Origin: an uncultured Gammaproteobacteria bacterium
GTDB taxonomy: Bacteria; Patescibacteriota; Patescibacteriia; Magasanikbacterales; UBA922
DNA: 64,000 nt
NCBI GenBank assembly: GCA_964522435.1
Contig: CAZFUL010000001.1
Span: 117,075 to 181,074, forward strand
Reading direction: 5' to 3'
Part shown: piece by piece, positions 18,786-33,011 of the stretch
How the letters are laid out: every line of letters begins with the position of its first letter
How positions within the stretch are numbered: position 1 is the first letter of the stretch
Translations under genes and position numbers: made by a program
The notes under the pieces: model-generated
Told to the model about the DNA's origin: nothing
What the model saw: only the letters and a program-made list of their open reading frames with translations
Databases searched by the model: none

Positions 18786-18876
18786 TGGCGGAAGGTGAGG
18801 GATTCGAACCCTCGATACCCTTTCAGGTATACCACCTTTCCAAGGTGGCGCACTCGACCAACTATGCGAACCTTCC
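18786..18876 (-). tRNA. tRNA-Ser (anticodon GGA), class II with long variable arm, CCA encoded
   Basis: Manual cloverleaf: acceptor GGAAGGT/ACCTTCC, D-stem GCA/TGC, anticodon stem CCACC/GGTGG with loop TTGGAAA, variable arm ATACC-TGAAA-GGGTAT, T-arm GAGGG-TTCGAAT-CCCTC. Confidence 0.85.
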
Positions 18877-19241: not shown

Positions 19242-20048
19242 ATGATTCCACCAAACTATAAAAGCTACTTTGAAATAAACCACTCTAATATTGAACGAGT
19301 GCAAATCTTTTTAAGTAGCAAATATATTTTCACTATCGGGATTTACAAAAAGGAAATGGGATTTTACATTGATTTTCCTAAATTTAACAAGTCAAACACG
19401 ACAGTTGCAAAATATATATTGCCCAAAGGACAAAGCTATATTGAAAAACTTGATCCCACGGCAACCGAACAAAAAAATATTTGTCCGAAATTAAGTTTTC
19501 ATGAATCAGGCTGGGTACTACTATCCAAGAGCGGATTTTTCTTTGATAAAACAATATCTCGCCAAAAAACCAATGATTCAATATTTAAAAATGATGGTAC
19601 GCACGTATTTACCATATCATTGCAAAATCCTAATTTTCTTCCCGACGAACCTCCTGCGATGAAAACACGCACCCGTGATATTGCATTACCGTCTTCTCCA
19701 CTTCCTAATGCAATCAAATTCGTAGGAAATTTATGGAAAAAGAGTGATCTTCAAGAAAGTTTTAAAGAATTTGGAATGCTAAAAAATGAAACTGAGTATC
19801 CCATAATATGGCCACGCAACGATGGAAGTAATTTGGGTGATATTGTGTTCATATTAAAATTTTGCCACTTAGTAGATTCAGAACCACTTTATTTGAGTGT
19901 CCGATGTATGATTATTCCAATTATGGATAAAGAATATTCAAAAGGAACTTTATTGACGTTGATGAGTGGCTTCATTTTTGGTGATGTGATCAATACTGAA
20001 AAAGAGACTGATTTCATCAGTTTTATTGCAAAAAGAGAACGAAATTGA
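19242..20048 (+). CDS. Hypothetical protein (268 aa), first gene of the defence island
   Basis: ATG ORF with no recognisable motif. Lies between tRNA-Ser and the HTH/methyltransferase genes. Confidence 0.5.
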   Translation: MIPPNYKSYFEINHSNIERVQIFLSSKYIFTIGIYKKEMGFYIDFPKFNKSNTTVAKYILPKGQSYIEKLDPTATEQKNICPKLSFHESGWVLLSKSGFFFDKTISRQKTNDSIFKNDGTHVFTISLQNPNFLPDEPPAMKTRTRDIALPSSPLPNAIKFVGNLWKKSDLQESFKEFGMLKNETEYPIIWPRNDGSNLGDIVFILKFCHLVDSEPLYLSVRCMIIPIMDKEYSKGTLLTLMSGFIFGDVINTEKETDFISFIAKRERN

Positions 20049-20311: not shown

Positions 20312-20980
20312 ATGGCCAACCAGATCATTTCAAAAAAACGTGTCACAGATCATGGTGAAGTGTTTACTTCTGAGCGAGAAGTGAATGCTATGCTGGATCT
20401 TGTAAAACAGGAAACAGAACGTATAGAATCTCGTTTTCTGGAACCTGCGTGTGGTACAGGTAATTTTTTGGATCCAATTCTTAGAAGAAAACTAGAAGTT
20501 ATAAGTAAGCGATATAAAAAAAGTCAGTTGGAATTTGAAAGAAACGGTGTCGTTACGATTGGGAGTATTTACGGTGTCGATATTTTACATGACAATGTCG
20601 TAGAGTGTAGAAACAGGTTGTTTGGTATCTTTGATTCTTGCTATACTGAATTGTATAAGAAAAAATGCACAGATGAATATCGTCGTGTTATACGTTTTAT
20701 TTTGGAGAGAAATATTTTACTTGGAGATGCACTAACACTCAAGACAGTGGGAAGTAAATCAGAGCCAATCGTATTTTCTGAGTGGTCTCTTGTGAGAGGG
20801 AGTGATATCAAACGTAGAGATTATGCCTTTGCTGAATTGATTCCAAATCAATCAAAAGAAAGTACATTATTTACTACAACACAAGTGTCCGATACAGGCT
20901 CTCCTGTATTTATACCAGAACCAAAAACTGAATTTCCTTTGACGCATTTTCTAAAATTACCGTATGAGACTACCCACTAA
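20312..20980 (+). CDS. N6-adenine methyltransferase N-terminal module only (motif X GEVFTS and motif I EPACGTGNFL, no NPPY): truncated paralog or accessory subunit
   Basis: Motifs read from the translation. Overlaps the full methyltransferase by 17 nt. Confidence 0.5.
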   Translation: MANQIISKKRVTDHGEVFTSEREVNAMLDLVKQETERIESRFLEPACGTGNFLDPILRRKLEVISKRYKKSQLEFERNGVVTIGSIYGVDILHDNVVECRNRLFGIFDSCYTELYKKKCTDEYRRVIRFILERNILLGDALTLKTVGSKSEPIVFSEWSLVRGSDIKRRDYAFAELIPNQSKESTLFTTTQVSDTGSPVFIPEPKTEFPLTHFLKLPYETTH

Positions 20981-22469
20981 CTACAATCCAGACGTACTCA
21001 CATGTTTGGCGAACTTGAGTAACGACGAGGTATTTACACCTCCTAGTTTGGTCAATGAGATTCTCGATCTTTTACCAAAAAAAATTTGGAAAAATAAACA
21101 TGCTAAATTTCTTGATCCTGTGACTAAAACAGGCGTATTTCTCAGAGAAATAGCAGCTCGATTGATTGATGGTCTTGAAAAAGAGATACCAGACAGACAA
21201 GAACGAATCAATCATATCTATACCAATCAGCTCTACGGTATTGCAATTACAGAACTCACTGCACTGCTTGCACGACGAAGTGTGTACTGCTCCAAAATAG
21301 CAAACGGAAAATACTCTATCTGTACGGAATTTACAGACGAACAAGGAAATATCCGTTTCAACAGGGTAGAGCATGAGTGGCAAGGAGAAAAATGTCGATA
21401 CTGTGGAGCAAGTAAATCAGAATATGATAGAGAAGATGCACTCGAAACACACGCCTATGAGTTTATTCATACCGATGATCCAAATAACTTGTATAACAAT
21501 ATGAAATTTGATGTCATCATTGGAAATCCACCGTATCAATTGAGTGACGCTGGACACGGTAGAAGTGCAAGTCCTATCTATCATAAGTTTATTGAGCAAG
21601 CGAAAAAGATGAATCCAAGGTATTTGACGATGATTATTCCTGCTCGTTGGTTTGCTGGTGGAAAAGGGCTTGATGAATTTCGTTCTGAAATGCTCGGTGA
21701 TAAGCGTATCCGAAGAATGGTAGACTTTGAAAATTCAAATGATGTATTTTCTGGTGTTGATATTGCTGGTGGTATTTGTTATTTCCTTTGGGATAGGGAT
21801 AATACGGGACTGTGTGAAGTAACTAATTTTATCAATGGTAAAGTAGAAAGTTCTTTGCGATATCTTGATGAGTTTCCAATTTTTATCCGTCATAGTAACG
21901 CAATTCCGATTATCAAAAAAGTGCTTGCAAAAAAAGAAAATGGTGGTAAGAATTTGAGTTCTGTGGTTTCTTCTCGAAAACCATTTGGTCTCCCCACAAA
22001 CTATCCACCAAAAAATTCTGGTGTACCTTGTTGGTTTATCCAAAAAATAGGTCTTAAATACGCAAGTAAAAAAGACGTTATCGATGATGTGGGGTTGTTG
22101 GATAAATGGAAATTGTTAATTCCTCCTGCTCCTATTGCTGGACAAACTGATTTTTCTAAACCAGTAGGCTTTTATTATGATGGAAATGTAAAAATAGCGA
22201 AACCGGGTGAGTGTTGTACTGAATCTTTTATTGTGGGTGGTGCTTTTGATACTAAAAAAGAAGTAGAATCGTTCAAAACATATTTGTTTACAAAAATTGT
22301 TCGATTTTTACTTTTACAAACAGTTGTATCCCAACATGTCACTAAAGATAAATTTATTTTTATACCAGATATCGGCAAATATGAGGGTGTTTTTACAGAT
22401 GAAATGTTATGTAAGCGATGGGGTATAACAAAAGACGAATGGAAGTTTATTGATTCACGCATTAAATAG
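20964..22469 (+). CDS. N6-adenine DNA methyltransferase, gamma-class, Eco57I-like
   Basis: Motif X EVFTPPSLVNEILDLL, motif I FLDPVTKTGVFL and motif IV NPPY (VIIGNPPYQ). C-terminal Eco57I-like region. Confidence 0.8.
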   Translation: MRLPTNYNPDVLTCLANLSNDEVFTPPSLVNEILDLLPKKIWKNKHAKFLDPVTKTGVFLREIAARLIDGLEKEIPDRQERINHIYTNQLYGIAITELTALLARRSVYCSKIANGKYSICTEFTDEQGNIRFNRVEHEWQGEKCRYCGASKSEYDREDALETHAYEFIHTDDPNNLYNNMKFDVIIGNPPYQLSDAGHGRSASPIYHKFIEQAKKMNPRYLTMIIPARWFAGGKGLDEFRSEMLGDKRIRRMVDFENSNDVFSGVDIAGGICYFLWDRDNTGLCEVTNFINGKVESSLRYLDEFPIFIRHSNAIPIIKKVLAKKENGGKNLSSVVSSRKPFGLPTNYPPKNSGVPCWFIQKIGLKYASKKDVIDDVGLLDKWKLLIPPAPIAGQTDFSKPVGFYYDGNVKIAKPGECCTESFIVGGAFDTKKEVESFKTYLFTKIVRFLLLQTVVSQHVTKDKFIFIPDIGKYEGVFTDEMLCKRWGITKDEWKFIDSRIK

Positions 22470-22477
22470 TTTTTTGT

Positions 22478-24994
22478 ATGATCAATCAAACTTTTTTCCC
22501 GCTTCGTCCAGAAGCTAAACCAACAATATATGTGTACAGATTCAAAGGTGTTAATACGCATGAAGGTCTTCTGAAAATTGGATATACTACGAGAAATGCT
22601 AAAGATCGTATCGCTGAACAGCTCACTACGAGTCGCCTTGAGCATGAAATTATTCTTGAAGAATCGGCGATGAGAAATGATGGTACTGCGTTTAGTGATC
22701 ACGATGTACATAGATATTTACGAAAAAACAATATTGAGCATGTAAATGGTGAGTGGTTCCGCTGTACGCTCAAAGATGTGAAATCTGCACTTGTAGCTAT
22801 TAAGTCCGGTGCCTTGAATGTAGAAAATAGAACACAGACTTTTGGTCTTCGCCCAGAACAAGAAAAGGCTATAGAAAAAACAATTACCTATTTCAAAAAT
22901 GTTAAAAAAGAAGGTGATAATAAAACACCACACTTCTTGTGGAATGCAAAAATGCGTTTTGGGAAAACATTTACTTCGTACCAGCTTGCAAAGAAAATGA
23001 ATTGGAAACGAGTACTCGTACTCACATTTAAGCCAGCAGTACAAAATGCGTGGGAAGAGGATCTCAAATCCCATGTTGATTTTGAAGGGTGGCAGTTTAT
23101 CTCACCAAATAGTCTCTCATACGAAGACGCTGATAAAGATAAACCACTTATTTGTTTTGGTTCATTTCAAGATTATCTGGGAAGAAACAAAAGTACAGGT
23201 GGTATTAAAACCAAAAATGAATGGGTACACACAACAAATTGGGACTGTGTCATCCTCGACGAGTACCACTATGGAGCGTGGAGAGAAAACGCAAAAGACT
23301 TGTTTGAGGCTGAAGAAAAACGTGTACAGCAAGATGAAGAGGGGGAAGGGCTTGAGTACTTTAGTGAAAGTGAAATGCCTATTACTACGGGGGCGTATCT
23401 GTATCTGTCGGGTACACCGTTCCGTGCGATTGCATCTGGTGAATTTATCGAAGAGCAAATTTTTAACTGGACATATTCAGATGAACAGCGTGCCAAAGAG
23501 CTGTGGCAAGGGGAGAATAACCCCTACGCATCACTACCTCGCATGGTGATGATGACCTATCAATTGCCCGATACTATTCGTGAAATTGCAATGGGTGGAG
23601 AGTTCAACGAGTTTGATCTCAACCTCTTTTTTTCAGCAGATGGGAAAGAAGAGCAAGCTCGCTTTACCTATGAAGATGAAGTTCAGAAATGGCTTGATCT
23701 GATTCGTGGGTCGTTTCAAGAGACAACAATTGATAACTTGAAACTTGGTGCAAAAAAACCACCACTTCCATTTTCTCATGCTCCGTTGCTGAGTGTATTG
23801 ACTCACACATTTTGGTTTTTACCGAGTGTGTCCTCTTGTTATGCGATGAAGAATCTACTCCAATCGAGACAAAACAAATTTTATAATGACTATAAAATCA
23901 TAGTAGCCGCAGGTAACAAAGCAGGGCTTGGTGCAGATGCACTCGAGCCTGTAGTCAAGGCGATGACACCTCCGCTTGAAACAAAAACAATTACACTCTC
24001 ATGTGGAAAATTAACGACGGGTGTTTCGGTAAAACCATGGACGGGTATTTTTATGTTGCGAAATTCTTCTAGTCCTGAAACATATTTTCAAGCCGCTTTT
24101 CGTGTACAGACACCATGGACGATCAAAAATCCAGACGGTAAGTCTCCTGATGAAGAAATGATACTCAAAAATGAGTGCTATGTGTTCGATTTTGCACCTG
24201 ATCGCGCGCTCCGACAGATTGCTGATTATAGTTGCCGTTTGAGTGTAGGGGACAAGAACCCAGAACAGAAAGTAGCAGAGTTTATCCATTTTTTGCCCGT
24301 TCTTGCGTATGATGGGAGTGCGATGAAACAGATTGATGCGGCTGGTATCTTGGATATGGCGATGAGTGGAACGACAGCGACACTGCTCGCTCGTCGTTGG
24401 GAAAGTGCCCTACTTGTAAACGTCGACAACTATACACTCAAACGCTTGATGGACAATGAAGATGCGATGAACGCCTTGATGAATATCGAGGGATTCCGCA
24501 GTCTCAATGCTGATATTGAAACGATTATCAACAAGTCAGAGGCTGTCGAAAAAACAAAAAAAGAAGCAAATGATAGAGAACTCACCAAAAAAGAAAAACA
24601 AGAACTCTCTGAGCAAGAAAAAGAGTATAAGATCGTGCGTAAACAGATTCAAGAGAAACTCATCAAGTTTGCTACTCGTGTGCCTGTTTTCATGTATCTG
24701 ACAGATTATCGTGAGAGAACTCTCAAAGATGTGATCACCCAATTGGAGCCTGGACTATTCAAAAAGGTCACTGGTTTAAGTGTGAAAGACTTTGAACTGC
24801 TAGTAAGTCTCAATGTGTTCAATAGTGCCCTCATGAACGATGCTGTATATAAATTTAAGCGATACGAAGACGCTAGTCTTAGTTATGCTGGTATCAGTAA
24901 GCACGAAGGAGAAAGTATTGGTCTGTACGACACTGTGATTCAACGAAGTGAGTTTGATCAGGTGTTTGAGAATACGGTAAAGTTGCAAACGTAA
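22478..24994 (+). CDS. T5orf172 (GIY-YIG-like) domain fused to ResIII / SF2 DEAH helicase (838 aa): putative restriction/translocase subunit
   Basis: N-terminus IYVYRF...GLLKIGYTTRNAKDRIAEQL...GEWF (T5orf172 hallmarks). LRPEQEKAI with Walker A FGKTFTS and motif II ILDEYHYGA. About 400-aa C-terminal region of unknown function. Confidence 0.75.
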   Translation: MINQTFFPLRPEAKPTIYVYRFKGVNTHEGLLKIGYTTRNAKDRIAEQLTTSRLEHEIILEESAMRNDGTAFSDHDVHRYLRKNNIEHVNGEWFRCTLKDVKSALVAIKSGALNVENRTQTFGLRPEQEKAIEKTITYFKNVKKEGDNKTPHFLWNAKMRFGKTFTSYQLAKKMNWKRVLVLTFKPAVQNAWEEDLKSHVDFEGWQFISPNSLSYEDADKDKPLICFGSFQDYLGRNKSTGGIKTKNEWVHTTNWDCVILDEYHYGAWRENAKDLFEAEEKRVQQDEEGEGLEYFSESEMPITTGAYLYLSGTPFRAIASGEFIEEQIFNWTYSDEQRAKELWQGENNPYASLPRMVMMTYQLPDTIREIAMGGEFNEFDLNLFFSADGKEEQARFTYEDEVQKWLDLIRGSFQETTIDNLKLGAKKPPLPFSHAPLLSVLTHTFWFLPSVSSCYAMKNLLQSRQNKFYNDYKIIVAAGNKAGLGADALEPVVKAMTPPLETKTITLSCGKLTTGVSVKPWTGIFMLRNSSSPETYFQAAFRVQTPWTIKNPDGKSPDEEMILKNECYVFDFAPDRALRQIADYSCRLSVGDKNPEQKVAEFIHFLPVLAYDGSAMKQIDAAGILDMAMSGTTATLLARRWESALLVNVDNYTLKRLMDNEDAMNALMNIEGFRSLNADIETIINKSEAVEKTKKEANDRELTKKEKQELSEQEKEYKIVRKQIQEKLIKFATRVPVFMYLTDYRERTLKDVITQLEPGLFKKVTGLSVKDFELLVSLNVFNSALMNDAVYKFKRYEDASLSYAGISKHEGESIGLYDTVIQRSEFDQVFENTVKLQT

Positions 24995-25259: not shown

Positions 25260-25640
25260 TTAGCCTTTCTTGAAATCGTTTCTTCCGACAATAAGTGAAA
25301 TCAATATTGCTGCAGATAATATGAGTCGATACCATACTGTGGTGCCTACTTGTGACAGATCGAGTAGGTGTGTTACTAACCCAAGGCTTACAAGTATTAA
25401 ACCAAGTGTATAAGCCCAATGTTTTGCTTTGAGCAAAAAACAGCCGATCAAAATACCTATAACGGCGGATATAATGTTGATGATTTGGGTCAACTCATTC
25501 GCCGTAGCTTGGAGACTTTCTGGTTCTATGGATGAGGGAGAACTTGTTAGATTTGTGAACGTGACAATCAAATTAATCAATCCTGCTATCATGAAGAGGC
25601 CTGCAGCAACTTTGATAGGGGAGGAAAGAGTATTACTCAT
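25260..25640 (-). CDS. Hypothetical small polytopic membrane protein (126 aa)
   Basis: Hydrophobic segments. ATG ORF on the minus strand between the helicase gene and the mrr cassette. Confidence 0.5.
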   Translation of the reverse strand: MSNTLSSPIKVAAGLFMIAGLINLIVTFTNLTSSPSSIEPESLQATANELTQIINIISAVIGILIGCFLLKAKHWAYTLGLILVSLGLVTHLLDLSQVGTTVWYRLILSAAILISLIVGRNDFKKG

Positions 25641-25676
25641 ATGGGTATAGTTACTATCTGCATTTTTTATATATAA

Positions 25677-25765
25677 ATCATAGCAAATATAGTACGAAAC
25701 ACAAACCTTTGCTATACTTTTTTTAGTATATCCTAGTATTATGCCCCCCTCAATTCCCTACACCC
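25677..25765. repeat. Direct repeat copy 1 (about 89 bp) flanking the mrr cassette
   Basis: Near-identical to 26748-26838 with 1-2 mismatches. Contains the palindromic tatac-T8-gtata element and the first codons (MPPSIPYTL) of a truncated copy of the YgjP-like gene. Confidence 0.8.
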
Positions 25766-26653
25766 TTAAGTTTCTTCAAAAAAGTCTTCGTCTATTTCTT
25801 TTACTTCGTATTTATTTTTAACTTGTAACCCCACTCCATATTCGTGCATTAAATCAACAAGTTTTTTGCCGTCAATGAGTATTATCGAATGATGTGCCTC
25901 TCTTGCTTTGTGTATGGCAGATTCATCGAAAGAAGAAGTCGTGACAAAAACTCCTTTACTTGTATCTCCGCTCATTGCTCCTATAAAATTACGAATCTCT
26001 TTTTCTCTTATTTTATTTTCATTATAACGCTTAGCTTGGATATATATTTTTGCTAGGCCTAATTTGTCTTCGTTAATAATACCATCTATTCCTCCATCAC
26101 CACTTTTCGAAGTTTCGATAAAATCTCCGTAGCCCATCTTATTTAATAGTAGCAAAACAACTTTTTCAAAATAATAAGGGTCTATTTCTTTAAGTCTTTC
26201 GAGAAGCTCATTTTTGACTTGCTTTTCAATAGCACTAAATCCCGAGTCAATCATATCTTGCGGAGAAGCATTTTCATCTTCCAAATCTATTTCAGAATCT
26301 TTTTCTTCTTTTTTTGCTTCCCTATGCGCTTGAAAATCAGGATCGTTAATTAAATCTGATAATGTTAAATTTCCACTCTTTACAACTTTTAAACCTTTTT
26401 CCGATATTTTTACCATCGCTCTTTCTGGTTGTTCAATCATTTTTGCCTGTTTGAGATATGCTTTTCCCCAGCCAATTCTATTTAATATTAGAATGTCTCC
26501 ACTCTTCGTCTTTTTTTCTAATAATTCTTCGCTCAAATTTGAATAATATTCATCCCGAACACGCTTTCGTAATTCGTTGTAATGTAAAATTTGACCATCG
26601 CTCAGTACGTTTAATATTGGTATAAATGTTTCGTGATATTTTGGTAGATCCAT
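25766..26653 (-). CDS. mrr: Mrr-family restriction endonuclease (type IV, modification-dependent)
   Basis: N-terminal winged-helix Mrr_N and C-terminal Mrr_cat motifs GDGGIDGI...IQAKRY. 295 aa. Confidence 0.8.
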   Translation of the reverse strand: MDLPKYHETFIPILNVLSDGQILHYNELRKRVRDEYYSNLSEELLEKKTKSGDILILNRIGWGKAYLKQAKMIEQPERAMVKISEKGLKVVKSGNLTLSDLINDPDFQAHREAKKEEKDSEIDLEDENASPQDMIDSGFSAIEKQVKNELLERLKEIDPYYFEKVVLLLLNKMGYGDFIETSKSGDGGIDGIINEDKLGLAKIYIQAKRYNENKIREKEIRNFIGAMSGDTSKGVFVTTSSFDESAIHKAREAHHSIILIDGKKLVDLMHEYGVGLQVKNKYEVKEIDEDFFEET

Positions 26654-26747
26654 ATTTTTGAGTTAATTTATCAATATTTTGCTTTTTTAAAAAATTTTTA
26701 TCATAAAAAAAGCGTATTTAATATAACTTACTTTTACCCAACCTTAT

Positions 26748-26838
26748 AAATCATAGCAAATATAGTACGAAACACAAACCTTTGCTATACTTTTTTTAGT
26801 ATATCCTAGTATTATGCCCCCCTTAATTCCCTACACCC
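26748..26838. repeat. Direct repeat copy 2, carrying the promoter and start of the YgjP-like gene
   Basis: See copy 1. The ATG of ORF 26814 lies inside the repeat. Confidence 0.8.
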
Positions 26839-27374
26839 TGAAAAAAAACGCTAAGGCTAAGTACCTGCGTATTGTTATTAATAGGGATGCCACTGTTTCT
26901 GTGGTGGCGCCAACACGGGTGAGCATGAAAGAAATAGAACAATTTATTGCAGATAAAACACTGTGGATACAAAAGCACGTGAGAGCGTTTCAAAAAAAGA
27001 AAGAAGCCGTAACCCCCGTACTTCCTGTAGGGTTTTCTCGTACAGACTACCATTCCTGCGTGGCACGAGCCAGAAAATTAGTAAAAGATCGCTTGGCACA
27101 TTTTAATGCTATCTATCAATGTCATTTTGCTCGGGTGAGTATAAAAAAACAAAGCACGGTGTGGGGGAGTTGCTCGGCAAAAAAGAATTTGAATTTTAAT
27201 TATAAAATAGTCTTATTACCCCCACATTTAGCGGATTATATTATTGTGCATGAACTCTGTCATTTGAAAGAAATGAACCATGGCAAACAATTTTGGTTGT
27301 TGGTAGCAAAAACAATACCCGAACATAAACAATATAGAAAAGAATTAGTGGCCTATGAAAGATATTTTTCTTAA
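26814..27374 (+). CDS. DUF45 / YgjP-like metal-dependent hydrolase (HExxH)
   Basis: HELCHLKEMNH zinc-binding motif near the C-terminus. 186 aa. Confidence 0.7.
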   Translation: MPPLIPYTLKKNAKAKYLRIVINRDATVSVVAPTRVSMKEIEQFIADKTLWIQKHVRAFQKKKEAVTPVLPVGFSRTDYHSCVARARKLVKDRLAHFNAIYQCHFARVSIKKQSTVWGSCSAKKNLNFNYKIVLLPPHLADYIIVHELCHLKEMNHGKQFWLLVAKTIPEHKQYRKELVAYERYFS

Positions 27375-28131: not shown

Positions 28132-28164
28132 AAAACCCTATACCGTTCTGGTACAGGGTTTTTG
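28132..28164 (+). terminator. Rho-independent terminator (ccctgtacc.../ggtacaggg + T-run)
   Basis: aaaaaccctataccgttctggtacagggttttt. Confidence 0.55.
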
Positions 28165-28238
28165 AATTGCTCCGACGGGGGTGGGGAACTGCCGAAGCAA
28201 TTCATCCGCGTCGTCGGGGCGGAACTCCTTGTTTGTCG

Positions 28239-28760
28239 TCAGGGGGTCCCTGTATTGTACGGGTCAAGGAAGATGAACCGTTCTTCTTTGGGATAGTACC
28301 CTGGGTATACCGTCCAGACCGTGAAGTGCCATTGCTGGTTGCGCTCTTTGCGCATCCGAACTTTCATGGTGAGTTGGGTAGTTTTTGGAGCCAGGATGAG
28401 CTCCTTGGGGAGGACGGGAATCCCGGATGACGGCCTTCTCAGCTGCTGTTGCAAGTATGGCTGGGTGGGGACACGGGTCACCCAGCCAATATGGCGGGGA
28501 AGACTCAGGGTGATCGAATGATCTTCTTTACCCCGTTCAATTGCGCTGCGCAGGGCCGCGCCCAAGTGTGCAGCAACCTCTTGGTCATCGACGCAGGCTT
28601 GCAGGTTTGGCCAGGCAGAAATATTTCCGGCCAGTGGAGCGCCTGCCAGACGGAAATGGTCAGTTTGTACCTGGACTATGGTCTCGTGGGGAAAGATGAC
28701 CTTGACCACCGGTGCGCCGTCCGGTCCCATAGGAAGGATCAGATATTTGGCGAAAAGCAT
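28239..28760 (-). CDS. Hypothetical protein (173 aa) in GC-rich islet C
   Basis: RBS aaggaa upstream of the ATG on the minus strand. GC about 55%. The + strand ORFs here are shadow ORFs. Confidence 0.45.
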   Translation of the reverse strand: MLFAKYLILPMGPDGAPVVKVIFPHETIVQVQTDHFRLAGAPLAGNISAWPNLQACVDDQEVAAHLGAALRSAIERGKEDHSITLSLPRHIGWVTRVPTQPYLQQQLRRPSSGIPVLPKELILAPKTTQLTMKVRMRKERNQQWHFTVWTVYPGYYPKEERFIFLDPYNTGTP

Positions 28761-31702: not shown

Positions 31703-31785
31703 TTATTTATACACAAGACAAGGTTTGACAAACATCTATTTAGGGCGTAGGGTAGAAACATCGTATGAAAAGATACTCAGTAAAT

Positions 31786-31876
31786 AATCATCGTCGTTAC
31801 AGCGACCTCGGATAACTTCCGCTAGGAATTGTTATCATTGAGGTCGCAGCAATCCCGCTATAATCGGGATTTTTTA
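31786..31876 (+). ncRNA. Candidate small structured RNA, unit 1 of a tandem paralogous pair (conserved 5' box, long hairpin, intrinsic terminator)
   Basis: aatcatcgtcgt box, then hairpin gacctcggataac...gttatcattgaggtc, then atcccg-ctataa-tcgggat plus T6. Confidence 0.4.
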
Positions 31877-31916
31877 TTTATTTATGAATAAGTGATATAT
31901 GAATTGTTTTGTGTGT

Positions 31917-32010
31917 AATCATCGTCGTCGCGTGGACCTCCGATAACATTCGTTAGGTATTGTTATCGTTGAGGTCCGCTATATCGCCACATTGGGCGAT
32001 ATTTTTTTTC
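31917..32010 (+). ncRNA. Candidate small structured RNA, unit 2 (structure conserved with sequence changes)
   Basis: aatcatcgtcgt box, then hairpin ggacctccgataac...gttatcgttgaggtcc, then atatcgcc-cacatt-gggcgatat plus T8. Confidence 0.4.
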
Positions 32011-32134
32011 CGTACATTATGGGAAGAGAAGGACAGACGATAGCAATATCTGATAGTAGCCTCTTCTCATAATCAGTAGCAATGCTGTTGCTGAACGTGG
32101 GAAGAGTAACGCTGTTGTATAGGAGGACGTTGTC

Positions 32135-32950
32135 ATGGCACCATACTTTTCTTGGCTGGTAGCGTCTGGAGTTATTGAACGAACAATGCCCGATGGAGGG
32201 GTGGTTCATGTTTCCACCTTGCCTGACGCAGCGGTGGCAGCTGCGGGCTGGTGGGGGACGGAAAATCTGCGTCCCGAGTATTGCTTGAGCGGCGGCTGCT
32301 TGTTTGATGCGCGTTGGCAGCTGCAGTTTCCTGCACAAAACAAAGGACACCAAGGCGCTGTTCGTACCTTGTCCTTGCCGCGTGAGCGCGATGATGCGTA
32401 TGCGCGTTTGAAGAAAGGACAAACGCCACTTGCCCTGCACCTGCCGAAAGGGCCTGGCGTGTATCAGCAGACGCTCATTCGCTGGCAAGCAGCGGTGTTT
32501 CGTCGCTTGCAGCCCACACAGATTCTGTACCATCTTCCGACCGATGAATATCGTGTCTACATTCAAGAGATGGAACAACATCTGGGCTATGCCGTTCCTG
32601 CTGCCTACACACAGCTTGACCAGCTCGCTGTCTCTATTCGTGCGCTTATGGTGCGGGAGTTTGGGGCTGCTCTCATGGCACGTGTTCGCTTCGTGCGTCC
32701 TATGCACACGCATGGAGTGAAAGATACGACACAGTCCTACCTGCATCCCTACTTGTTTCCGGAGTTGTATGGGATCACTCCTGCCAATACCGTTGGTGTG
32801 GAAGATCTTGTTGAACTCCGTCTTGCCTACGAAGCATGGCGCATGCGCGGACACCAGATTTCGGTGTACGCAGCTGCCCTTGCCCTGCCTCCTCCCTACG
32901 CAGATAAAACGCTGCGGCCTGGGGAATTCACGACCGTTGAGCTGATGTGA
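32135..32950 (+). CDS. Hypothetical protein (271 aa) in GC-rich islet D, strong SD
   Basis: taggagga lies 8 nt upstream of the ATG. GC is well above the flanks. The antisense ORF 31979-32854 is judged a shadow. Confidence 0.5.
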   Translation: MAPYFSWLVASGVIERTMPDGGVVHVSTLPDAAVAAAGWWGTENLRPEYCLSGGCLFDARWQLQFPAQNKGHQGAVRTLSLPRERDDAYARLKKGQTPLALHLPKGPGVYQQTLIRWQAAVFRRLQPTQILYHLPTDEYRVYIQEMEQHLGYAVPAAYTQLDQLAVSIRALMVREFGAALMARVRFVRPMHTHGVKDTTQSYLHPYLFPELYGITPANTVGVEDLVELRLAYEAWRMRGHQISVYAAALALPPPYADKTLRPGEFTTVELM

Positions 32951-33011
32951 TATACACCTCAGCTCCGGTCACCATCCCATAAATAGTTATTTTTTATTAT
33001 ACTATATCCAT

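What the first reader, a model, noticed from the sequence alone, without database searches (positions are those of the whole stretch)
25677..26838. Mrr restriction gene inserted as a cassette flanked by an ~89-bp direct repeat that duplicates a promoter and the 5' end of the adjacent gene
Two near-identical copies (25677-25765 and 26748-26838, differing at about 2 positions) bracket the minus-strand mrr gene exactly. The mrr stop codon abuts copy 1. The repeat contains a palindromic tatac-T8-gtata element, a likely divergent promoter, plus the ATG and first 9 codons of the YgjP-like gene. Copy 2 continues into the intact gene. Copy 1 continues into a 28-codon dead-end ORF. This is the footprint of a gene-cassette insertion or recombination at the 5' end of the YgjP-like gene. 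An 89-bp duplication is far too long for a normal transposon target-site duplication.
Basis: seen in the sequence. Interest (0 to 1): 0.65.

Follow-up and report, generated by a model that had tools for sequence, protein, structure and literature searches.

The report
Mrr gene flanked by duplicated promoter
A foreign restriction-enzyme gene (mrr) was spliced into the start of a housekeeping gene in a Patescibacteria-like genome, and about 94 bases of the target were duplicated on both sides; this is a clean but fairly ordinary scar of illegitimate DNA insertion, not a recognisable mobile element.

Summary
The repeat is real. Positions 25672-25769 and 26745-26842 match at 96 of 98 bases. The strictly shared part is 94 nt (25672-25765 and 26745-26838) with one mismatch. 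It is one of only two repeats found in the 64-kb window. The two copies bracket a 979-bp AT-rich segment (25766-26744) that holds a complete minus-strand Mrr type IV restriction gene and a 91-nt leader. Copy 2 runs into an intact YgjP-like gene. Copy 1 runs into a 26-codon fusion ORF. The repeat's last ~25 nt are native YgjP coding sequence, so the repeat comes from the target and was not brought in by mrr. The mrr gene looks foreign: its GC3 is 0.23 against 0.27-0.37 for eight other genes of the window, and it is 70-92% identical to proteins from other phyla. The nearest YgjP relatives (67-68% aa) lack mrr. The mrr-3' junction shows 2-nt microhomology. I found no transposase, integrase, terminal inverted repeats or attC features. 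At least six other members of this Mrr family sit in integron-type attC cassettes, but this locus fails the attC tests. The best reading is a one-off illegitimate or replicative insertion that duplicated the target and so kept the shared control region for both neighbouring genes. An exact empty site was not found, and the assembly could not be checked against reads. Interest is low to moderate.

The parts
25672..25765 (.). Repeat copy 1 (R1). It holds 69 nt of intergenic DNA plus the ATG and the first 8 1/3 codons of a YgjP-like gene. It lies 32 nt upstream of the DUF7144 gene start and abuts the mrr stop codon.
26745..26838 (.). Repeat copy 2 (R2). It matches R1 at 93 of 94 bases and continues into the intact YgjP-like gene. 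It lies 92 nt upstream of the mrr start codon on the other strand.
25766..26653 (-). mrr: a 295-aa type IV (modification-dependent) restriction endonuclease with Mrr_N and Mrr_cat domains. GC3 is 0.233, so it looks foreign.
   Evidence: Pfam 5.6e-35 and 1.4e-20; PADLOC mREase_IV 4.6e-55
26654..26744 (-). A 91-nt AT-rich (17.6% GC) leader that arrived with mrr. It has no homolog upstream of other mrr genes. On the mrr strand it begins AGGTTGGGT, and GTTGGGT (26742-26736) fits the integron core consensus GTTRRRY.
25764..25769 (.). Junction 1, between the truncated YgjP 5' end and the mrr 3' end. All aligned mrr relatives end ...TTAAG, and the uninterrupted target reads TTCAG on the same strand. 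That gives 2 nt of exact microhomology (AG), or 4 of 5.
25741..25821 (+). A 26-codon fusion ORF (MPPSIPYTLKFLQKSLRLFLLLRIYF). It joins the duplicated YgjP start to sequence antisense to the mrr 3' end and is probably a by-product.
25713..25730 (.). Palindrome TATACT-TTTTTT-AGTATA inside R1. The same palindrome is at 26786-26803 in R2. Each arm reads as a -10-like hexamer facing outwards.
   Evidence: only these 2 sites in the window; TTGAGG-17-TATACT on the minus strand, 25753-25725
26814..27374 (+). Intact YgjP-like (M48/SprT-type) metallohydrolase gene. Its N-terminus ...PYTLK... is shared with relatives.
25260..25640 (-). A 126-aa DUF7144 membrane protein gene, the left neighbour, transcribed away from R1.
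20312..24994 (+). Neighbouring restriction-modification genes: an Eco57I-type methyltransferase and a ResIII helicase with a T5orf172 domain. Both match a type IIG model. Together with mrr they form a low-GC defence island between tRNA-Ser (18786-18876) and YgjP.

Best explanation
A 979-bp piece of foreign DNA (25766-26744) entered the chromosome of a Patescibacteria-like bacterium. The piece was a promoter-poor mrr gene with a 91-nt leader. It was inserted in one non-homologous event, either a microhomology-mediated template switch or end-joining at a staggered break. The event left the target at about codon 9 of the YgjP-like gene and re-entered it 94 nt further upstream, so that stretch is now present on both sides of the insert. 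No dedicated recombinase or transposase was involved. Consequences: YgjP keeps its start codon and upstream region (copy 2). The divergent DUF7144 gene keeps the same region (copy 1). mrr now lies downstream of the leftward-facing side of copy 2 and can borrow whatever promoter that region holds. Copy 1's rightward side now reads into the mrr 3' end as antisense and encodes a 26-aa junk peptide. Shown here: the duplication, its exact boundaries, the target origin of the repeat, the foreignness of mrr, the microhomology at one junction, and the absence of mobile-element features. Inferred: the single-step mechanism, the order of events and promoter activity.
For: The repeat is real and near-identical (93/94), so it is recent. 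Its distal 25 nt are native YgjP coding sequence: relative L081 starts ATGAGTGTTCCCTACACCCTCAAA, giving MSVPYTLK. Homology to the YgjP genes of L081-L085 continues further into the gene. mrr is a compositional outlier, with GC3 0.233 against 0.27-0.37 for eight other genes of the window. Its protein is 70-92% identical to proteins labelled Nitrospina, Bacteroidetes, Melioribacteraceae and Gammaproteobacteria. By contrast, YgjP's best relatives are Patescibacteria-type and at most 68% identical. Nucleotide homology to other mrr loci covers only the ORF, from about 25 nt before the ATG to TTAAG at the stop, which lies exactly at junction 1. That junction has 2-nt microhomology with the target. 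The nearest relatives have YgjP...MsrB without mrr or DUF7144. No integrase or transposase domain was found in any ORF of at least 140 aa in the 64 kb. The ends of the insert are not inverted repeats. None of the other mrr loci tested shows a target-type duplication.
Against: No exact empty site or sister strain was found. The organism seems to have been sampled only once. The donor sequence at junction 2 (26744|26745) is unknown, so microhomology there cannot be scored. A single event that duplicates 94 bp is unusual for bacterial illegitimate recombination, which more often deletes. A recombination-based route using a pre-existing copy of the repeat would give the same product. The assembly has not been checked against reads.
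Confidence: 0.45

Rival explanations
1. Homology-driven integration. The incoming DNA was either a circle or a linear fragment from a sister strain and already carried a copy of R next to mrr. It recombined with the resident R by a Campbell-type single crossover, or by homology-facilitated illegitimate recombination: R/YgjP served as the homologous anchor, and the mrr 3' end joined illegitimately inside YgjP codon 9. The direct repeats are then the recombination substrate, and RecA could excise the 1073-bp unit again.
For: The two copies are 99% identical over 94 nt, with one internal SNP, as expected for alleles from two close strains. One boundary is a microhomology junction and the other is a clean end of homology. 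The window encodes a type IV pilus and competence-type apparatus (PilM, prepilin peptidase, pilin-like protein, DprA-like SLOG protein) that could support DNA uptake.
Against: It only pushes the problem back: mrr still had to be placed next to R once. No genome or contig with mrr next to YgjP was found among 85 YgjP loci or about 90 mrr loci. R is absent from every collection searched.
Confidence: 0.22
2. Two steps. mrr was first inserted between the DUF7144 gene and the shared intergenic region without any duplication. Later the 94-nt promoter-bearing segment was copied downstream of mrr. This would be promoter propagation, restoring a promoter to the DUF7144 gene.
For: Identical upstream segments in front of non-homologous genes are a described phenomenon: putative mobile promoters of 50-100 nt at 80% identity or more (PMC3488235). 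Here R sits upstream of both DUF7144 and mrr on the minus strand.
Against: It needs two rare events, and the second must end exactly at the mrr stop codon. The copied segment carries 25 nt of YgjP coding sequence, which is useless for a leftward promoter. R has only two copies in the window.
Confidence: 0.12
3. Site-specific recombination. The R copies are attL and attR of a small non-autonomous integrative element. It could be CIME-like or IMEX-like, using the TATACT-N6-AGTATA palindrome as a tyrosine-recombinase core site, or a degenerate integron cassette. A recombinase encoded elsewhere would mobilise it.
For: The palindrome with a 6-nt spacer sits in the middle of R and occurs nowhere else in the window. 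GTTGGGT (the integron consensus GTTRRRY) lies 3 nt from the R2 boundary on the mrr strand. At least six other members of this Mrr family are bona fide attC-flanked cassettes: L107, L121, L125, L126, L129 and L134.
Against: No recombinase domain was found in the 64 kb. R has no AAC...GTT core pair. Its ssDNA fold is no better than shuffles (z about -1), whereas the true attC sites of L126 and L134 reach z -2.3 and -2.6. The repeat identity does not end at G|TT. The end of R is native YgjP coding sequence. The palindrome is absent from the 98 loci held.
Confidence: 0.08
4. Assembly artefact or mis-resolved graph. The exact 79-nt shared stretch forms a loop in a de Bruijn graph. The true state could be an empty chromosomal site plus a 1073-bp circle, a tandem array, or a mixture of strains.
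For: The source is a metagenome-assembled contig of 257,606 nt. The longest exact stretch shared by the copies is 79 nt, longer than common k-mer sizes, so the path choice depended on read pairs.
Against: Both novel junctions must exist in reads for the contig to be built at all. The copies differ by an internal SNP, which a collapsed or duplicated repeat would not show. The mrr, YgjP and DUF7144 proteins are all recorded from the same public contig.
Confidence: 0.1

Closest known systems
Putative mobile promoters / promoter propagation (Matus-Garcia et al. 2012, PMC3488235)
   Same: A near-identical segment of about 94 nt lies upstream of two non-homologous genes in one genome (DUF7144 and mrr on the minus strand). 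The paper names random duplication by homologous or non-homologous recombination as the expected origin of two-copy families.
   Different: Here the duplicated piece also carries the first 9 codons of a third gene. The two copies exactly bracket one inserted gene, so the duplication looks like a by-product of the insertion rather than an independent promoter move. Promoter activity has not been shown.
Integron gene cassettes (attC-flanked), including defence-gene cassettes
   Same: A single, compact, promoter-poor defence gene of about 1 kb lies between direct repeats of about 100 nt. Other members of this same Mrr family are found in attC arrays with repeat spacings of 1021-1074 nt: L121, L125 and L134, with further attC-like sites in L107, L126 and L129. 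Restriction endonucleases are reported among integron cassettes (PMC10661359).
   Different: The window's repeat has no R''/R' cores and no significant hairpin. It ends in native coding sequence and not at G|TT. There is no intI gene and no array.
Microhomology-mediated illegitimate recombination / template switching (MMBIR-type model, PMC2621351; homology-facilitated illegitimate recombination in transformable bacteria, from my own knowledge)
   Same: A non-recurrent junction with 2-nt microhomology, and an insertion accompanied by duplication of adjacent target sequence.
   Different: Those models were built on eukaryotic copy-number variants or laboratory transformation. Neither has been demonstrated in Patescibacteria, and only one of the two junctions can be scored here.
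Transposon target-site duplications
   Same: A direct duplication of target sequence on both sides of an inserted segment.
   Different: The duplication is 94 bp, against the usual 2-14 bp. There are no terminal inverted repeats and no transposase.
E. coli-type Mrr (type IV modification-dependent restriction endonuclease) in defence or 'immigration control' islands
   Same: The same domain architecture (Mrr_N winged helix plus Mrr_cat), and a position beside another restriction-modification system.
   Different: The host lineage is different (Patescibacteria-like). The gene sits inside a duplicated promoter/5' gene segment. Its activity and specificity are untested.

Membership tests
Mrr type IV restriction endonuclease | N-terminal Mrr_N (winged-helix) domain plus C-terminal Mrr_cat (PD-(D/E)xK) domain in one protein of about 300 aa | tested here: met
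   Pfam Mrr_cat 5.6e-35 (residues 154-269) and Mrr_N 1.4e-20 (6-92). PADLOC mREase_IV 4.6e-55 over residues 1-293.
Mrr type IV restriction endonuclease | Intact catalytic core and a full-length ORF (not a pseudogene) | tested here: met
   The 295-aa ORF is colinear over 100% of its length with homologs of 292-300 aa. The ...GDGGIDG...IYIQAKRY... block is present and is invariant in the DNA alignment with L096, L086 and L087. Calling these the catalytic residues rests on my general knowledge of PD-(D/E)xK enzymes.
Mrr type IV restriction endonuclease | Cleavage dependent on modified DNA | not testable with these tools
   This needs a biochemical or in vivo assay.
Integron gene cassette / attC | attC site with complementary R'' (RYYYAAC) and R' (GTTRRRY) cores and inner L''/L' stems | tested here: not met
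   Custom scans found none on either side of mrr in the window. The same scans, or inspection, find such sites in L107, L121, L125, L126, L129 and L134. A lone GTTGGGT lies at 26742-26736 with no partner.
Integron gene cassette / attC | Folded single-strand hairpin | tested here: not met
   The ssDNA fold of R has z -0.9 and -1.1 on the two strands. The attC sites of L126 and L134 reach z -2.3 and -2.6.
Integron gene cassette / attC | Identity between neighbouring repeats ends at the G|TT crossover point | tested here: not met
   On the mrr strand R ends ...GATTTATA. It is followed by AGGTTGGGT in one copy and TATAAAAA in the other. In L125, L134 and L121 the repeats end at GTT(A).
Integron gene cassette / attC | intI integrase or an array of several cassettes nearby | tested here: not met
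   No Phage_integrase hit in any ORF of at least 140 aa. The window holds only two copies of R.
IS/transposon insertion | Transposase gene, terminal inverted repeats and a short (2-14 bp) target-site duplication | tested here: not met
   No transposase domain (same Pfam calls). No inverted repeat at the insert ends. The duplication is 94 bp.
Integrative element att sites (CIME/IMEX-like) | Cognate tyrosine or serine recombinase, and recombination within a short core | tested here: inconclusive
   No recombinase is in the window, but one could act in trans from elsewhere in the genome. A palindrome with a 6-nt spacer is present in R. No excision data are available.
Putative mobile promoter (PMP) family | At least 50 nt at 80% identity or more, upstream of non-homologous CDSs | tested here: inconclusive
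   R (94 nt, 99% identity) lies at -32 to -125 of DUF7144 and at -92 to -185 of mrr. In the paper's fixed -50 to -150 windows, only about 41 nt of R are common to both genes, which is below its 50-nt cut-off. So the concept is met but the operational rule is not.
Putative mobile promoter (PMP) family | The segment actually contains a promoter | tested here: inconclusive
   The consensus scan finds TTGAGG-17-TATACT on the minus strand inside R1. Overall, though, there are 5 sites against 7.2 expected by chance. No transcript data are available.

The most novel reading that the evidence does not exclude
The R-mrr-R unit could be an example of an unrecognised way in which small-genome Patescibacteria capture single promoterless defence genes, possibly former integron cassettes stripped of their attC. 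On this reading, a staggered or replicative insertion duplicates about 100 bp of a divergent promoter region. Both neighbours therefore stay expressed, the newcomer gains a promoter, and the unit stays excisable by recombination between the long repeats, making it in effect a recombinase-free cassette. The GTTGGGT core 3 nt from the R2 boundary, and the presence of the same Mrr family in true attC cassettes, would then be traces of where the gene came from.
Probability: 0.08. Interest if true: 0.6.

Novelty: new member of a known kind. Interest (0 to 1): 0.28.

Why it matters
This is a well-resolved single example of how a horizontally acquired defence gene can enter a compact genome inside a gene's 5' end without destroying either neighbour, because the target's control region was duplicated. 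If reads or sister strains confirmed it, the locus would record an illegitimate-recombination event in a lineage (Patescibacteria/CPR) where recombination pathways are poorly known. It would also be a natural case of promoter sharing by duplication. The side observation that this Mrr family also travels as integron cassettes is useful context for work on defence-gene mobility. None of this changes current understanding, so the value is illustrative.

Tried and rejected
1. Exact look-ups of the window's YgjP and Mrr proteins in the contig index returned nothing. The cluster look-up did show that both, and DUF7144, come from one NCBI contig of 257,606 nt.

It found neither the source genome nor an empty site.

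3. Exact-match scans for the repeat core found nothing in JGI metagenomes or in IMG/VR.

4. Plasmid and phage BLAST found only a 72% mrr match on a Chondrinema plasmid and no phage match. The viral protein scan gave one 37% relative.

5. Rfam found no RNA family in or near the repeat. The RNA fold of the minus strand of R is moderately stable (z -2.8), but it relies on G-U pairs and disappears with DNA parameters. I therefore did not pursue a structured-element reading.

6. The integron/attC hypothesis was tested and rejected for this locus.

7. I considered dif/Xer-like use of the 6-nt-spacer palindrome. GC skew does not change sign here, the motif is unique to R, and no recombinase is nearby, so this stays a low-probability rival.

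8. I looked for a repeat of tRNA-Ser that would mark an island boundary. No repeat other than R involves the 18.8-27 kb region.

9. I asked whether such repeats are common in related genomes. There are 25 pairs of at least 50 nt at 90% identity or more in 1.3 Mb of YgjP loci. In most of the eleven I inspected, the repeat lies between called ORFs, and several are hairpin or terminator-like sequences. No duplicated gene 5' end was evident.
Full report
**Observation**

The region was read directly and searched for repeats.
- One direct-repeat family stands out: 25672-25769 and 26745-26842, 98 nt, 96 of 98 identical, with a start-to-start spacing of 1073 nt.
- The mismatches are 25751 C / 26824 T and 25767 T / 26840 G.
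- A 73-nt core occurs exactly twice in the 64-kb window and in none of 100 shuffles.
- In a self-BLAST of the whole window this pair has E = 5e-42. The only other repeat is an unrelated 61-nt pair near 31.8 kb.
- The strictly shared block is 94 nt (25672-25765 and 26745-26838) with one mismatch. The remaining 4 nt overlap the mrr stop codon and are junction microhomology.

- The palindrome is TATACT-N6-AGTATA.
- The dead-end ORF has 26 codons.

**Anatomy**

Between the copies lie 979 bp (25766-26744).
- They hold a 295-aa minus-strand ORF (25766-26653) with Mrr_N and Mrr_cat domains. It also matches the PADLOC type IV methyl-directed restriction model at 4.6e-55.
- They also hold a 91-nt leader of 17.6% GC.
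- Copy 2 contains the ATG (26814) of a 186-aa YgjP-like metallohydrolase (Pfam 8.6e-44).
- Copy 1 contains the same ATG and runs into MPPSIPYTLKFLQKSLRLFLLLRIYF, which is antisense to the mrr 3' end.

To the left, a 126-aa DUF7144 membrane protein gene (25260-25640, minus strand) starts 32 nt from copy 1. Further left are an Eco57I-type methyltransferase and a ResIII/T5orf172 helicase. Both match a type IIG restriction-modification model. The stretch from tRNA-Ser (18786-18876) to copy 2 has lower GC (0.37, and 0.31 for the insert) than the window as a whole (0.405).

The rest of the window is ordinary chromosome: SecDF, DnaG, RpoD, pilus genes, LigA, GatCA, MsrB, MscL, MraZ/W, ClpB, RecR, DnaB, BipA. 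No integrase or transposase domain was found in any ORF of at least 140 aa.

**Which sequence is native and which is foreign**

YgjP's best relatives are Patescibacteria-type proteins. Apart from its own 100% match from an NCBI contig of 257,606 nt, the closest relatives reach only 68% and 67% identity.

Those relatives (L081, L082-L085) have a tRNA or Sua5 upstream of YgjP, followed by three small genes, MsrB and MsrA. Their MsrB is 81-86% identical to the window's, so they are the nearest sampled relatives. They carry no mrr and no DUF7144 gene.

L081's YgjP starts MSVPYTLK, encoded by ...CCCTACACCCTCAAA. This matches the last 11 nt of the repeat, so the repeat's distal end is native YgjP coding sequence. 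The repeat therefore comes from the target and was not brought in by mrr.

In contrast, mrr looks foreign:
- Its GC3 is 0.233, against 0.27-0.37 for eight other genes of the window.
- Its protein is 70-92% identical to proteins labelled Nitrospina, Bacteroidetes, Melioribacteraceae and Gammaproteobacteria.
- Its nucleotide homology to other mrr loci covers only the ORF, from about 25 nt before the ATG to TTAAG at the stop.

**Junctions**

On the mrr strand the product reads ...GAAGAAACTTAAG|GGTGTAGGG. All aligned mrr relatives end ...TTAAG. The uninterrupted target (copy 2) reads ...TTCAGGGTGTAGGG. Junction 1 therefore has 2 nt of exact microhomology (AG), or 4 of 5 positions, which is typical of illegitimate joining.

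Junction 2 (26744|26745) cannot be scored because no donor with the 91-nt leader was found.

**Tests of mobile-element readings**

Transposon: there are no terminal inverted repeats and no transposase, and the duplication is 94 bp.

Integron cassette: I fetched about 90 other mrr loci and tested 62 complete ones for flanking direct repeats.
- Long flanking repeats occur in L125 (70 nt), L134 (114 nt) and L121 (three copies).
- These repeats end at GTT(A) and pair with ACAYAAC-type cores. In L125 the cassette's own 5' end is complementary to its 3' attC arm.
- L107, L126 and L129 also carry attC-like sites.
- So this Mrr family does circulate as integron cassettes in at least 6 of about 68 loci. 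This fits reports of restriction endonucleases among cassettes (PMC10661359).

The window's repeat fails each attC criterion:
- It has no AAC/GTT core pair.
- Its ssDNA fold is no better than shuffles (z about -1), whereas true attC sites reach z -2.3 and -2.6.
- Its identity does not end at G|TT.
- There is no intI gene and no array.

A lone GTTGGGT, which fits the GTTRRRY consensus, sits 3 nt from the copy-2 boundary at the start of the mrr leader. That may be a relic of a cassette origin or may be chance. I record it as a lead only.

Site-specific att sites: the 6-nt-spacer palindrome is unique to R and could in principle be a recombinase core. However, no recombinase is nearby, and GC skew shows no terminus here.

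**Best explanation**

I favour a single illegitimate or replicative insertion that left the target at YgjP codon 9 and re-entered it 94 nt upstream, duplicating that stretch (confidence 0.45).

Rivals:
- Homology-driven integration of DNA that already carried R, by a Campbell-type crossover or homology-facilitated illegitimate recombination (0.22).
- A two-step history with later promoter propagation (0.12; concept from PMC3488235).
- Site-specific recombination (0.08).
- A mis-resolved assembly loop (0.10).

The internal SNP, and the need for both novel junctions to be present in reads, argue against a pure artefact. The 79-nt exact core nevertheless means the path choice depended on read pairs.

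**Functional consequences (inferred)**

- YgjP and DUF7144 each keep a full copy of their shared intergenic region.
- mrr lies 92 nt downstream of the leftward face of copy 2 and may be driven from it.
- Copy 1's rightward face points into the mrr 3' end.

Promoter prediction does not support or exclude this. One TTGAGG-17-TATACT site lies on the minus strand in copy 1, but the region as a whole has 5 sites against 7.2 expected.

**Background rate**

In 1.3 Mb of Patescibacteria-type YgjP loci there are 25 pairs of direct repeats of at least 50 nt at 90% identity or more. That is roughly one per 50-65 kb, so local repeats as such are not rare in these genomes. In most of the eleven pairs I inspected, the repeat lies between called ORFs, and several are hairpin or terminator-like sequences that bracket small genes. 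No duplicated gene 5' end was evident.

**Verdict**

The term 'cassette' is not supported in a mechanistic sense, and no exact empty site was found. This is a new instance of known kinds of events, namely a horizontally acquired Mrr gene in a defence island and a duplication-associated illegitimate insertion or promoter duplication. Interest is 0.28.

Noticed in passing
window 31785-31845 and 31916-31976 (with 31848-31876 and 31978-32009): This is the only other repeat in the window: two 61-nt copies (82% identity), 131 nt apart. Each has an internal stem (GACCTCGGATAAC...GTTATCATTGAGGTC) and is followed by a hairpin plus T-run that looks like a terminator. They look like two tandem small structured RNAs or leaders. 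Neither has an Rfam gathering hit.
   Followed up: partly
window 28160-28760 (and 32000-33000): GC-rich blocks (0.53) in a genome of 0.40 GC. The first holds a 173-aa minus-strand ORF with no Pfam hit. That ORF is weakly similar (23%, E 4e-8) to the 189-aa gene downstream of YgjP in relative L082, so it may be a conserved lineage-specific gene. The second block has overlapping ORFs on both strands and no Pfam hit.
   Followed up: partly
L107, L121, L125, L126, L129, L134 (metagenome loci): Members of the same Mrr family (64-72% aa identity to the window's) sit in integron-type cassettes flanked by attC-like repeats with GTT(A/G)TGT / ACA(T/C)AAC cores. L121 shows three repeat copies spaced 1027 and 868 nt apart. 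No integrase was looked for in these short contigs.
   Followed up: partly
window 26736-26742 (minus strand): GTTGGGT, a perfect match to the integron core consensus GTTRRRY, lies 3 nt from the boundary of repeat copy 2 at the start of the mrr leader. TAAGTT, 14 nt further in, is complementary to AACTTA at the mrr stop. This may be a relic of a cassette origin or a coincidence.
   Followed up: partly
window 20312-24994: An apparent split type IIG-like restriction-modification system. It has a 222-aa ORF with weak methyltransferase N-terminal matches that overlaps the start of the 501-aa Eco57I-type methyltransferase (a possible frameshift or a separate subunit). An 838-aa ResIII helicase with an N-terminal T5orf172/MUG113 domain follows. 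The 268-aa ORF at 19242-20048 has no match in Pfam or PADLOC.
   Followed up: no
L086-L095 (groundwater metagenome contigs): The 86%-identical Mrr (P0122) sits in one conserved context in at least 10 assemblies: an IS1595-family transposase, a 53-aa DUF7387 gene, mrr, then an EamA transporter. A PolX gene and a NiFe hydrogenase lie nearby. This is an unrelated host and context, which illustrates how mobile the gene is.
   Followed up: no
L019 8982-9547; L036 1201-1793; L042 693-1571; L075 15923-16871: In other Patescibacteria-type genomes, near-identical intergenic repeats of 60-150 nt, often hairpin or terminator-like, bracket one or two small genes. Examples are an HTH plus 142-aa pair in L042 and a GIY-YIG-like 98-aa gene in L075. 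This may be a recurrent way of packaging small accessory genes.
   Followed up: no
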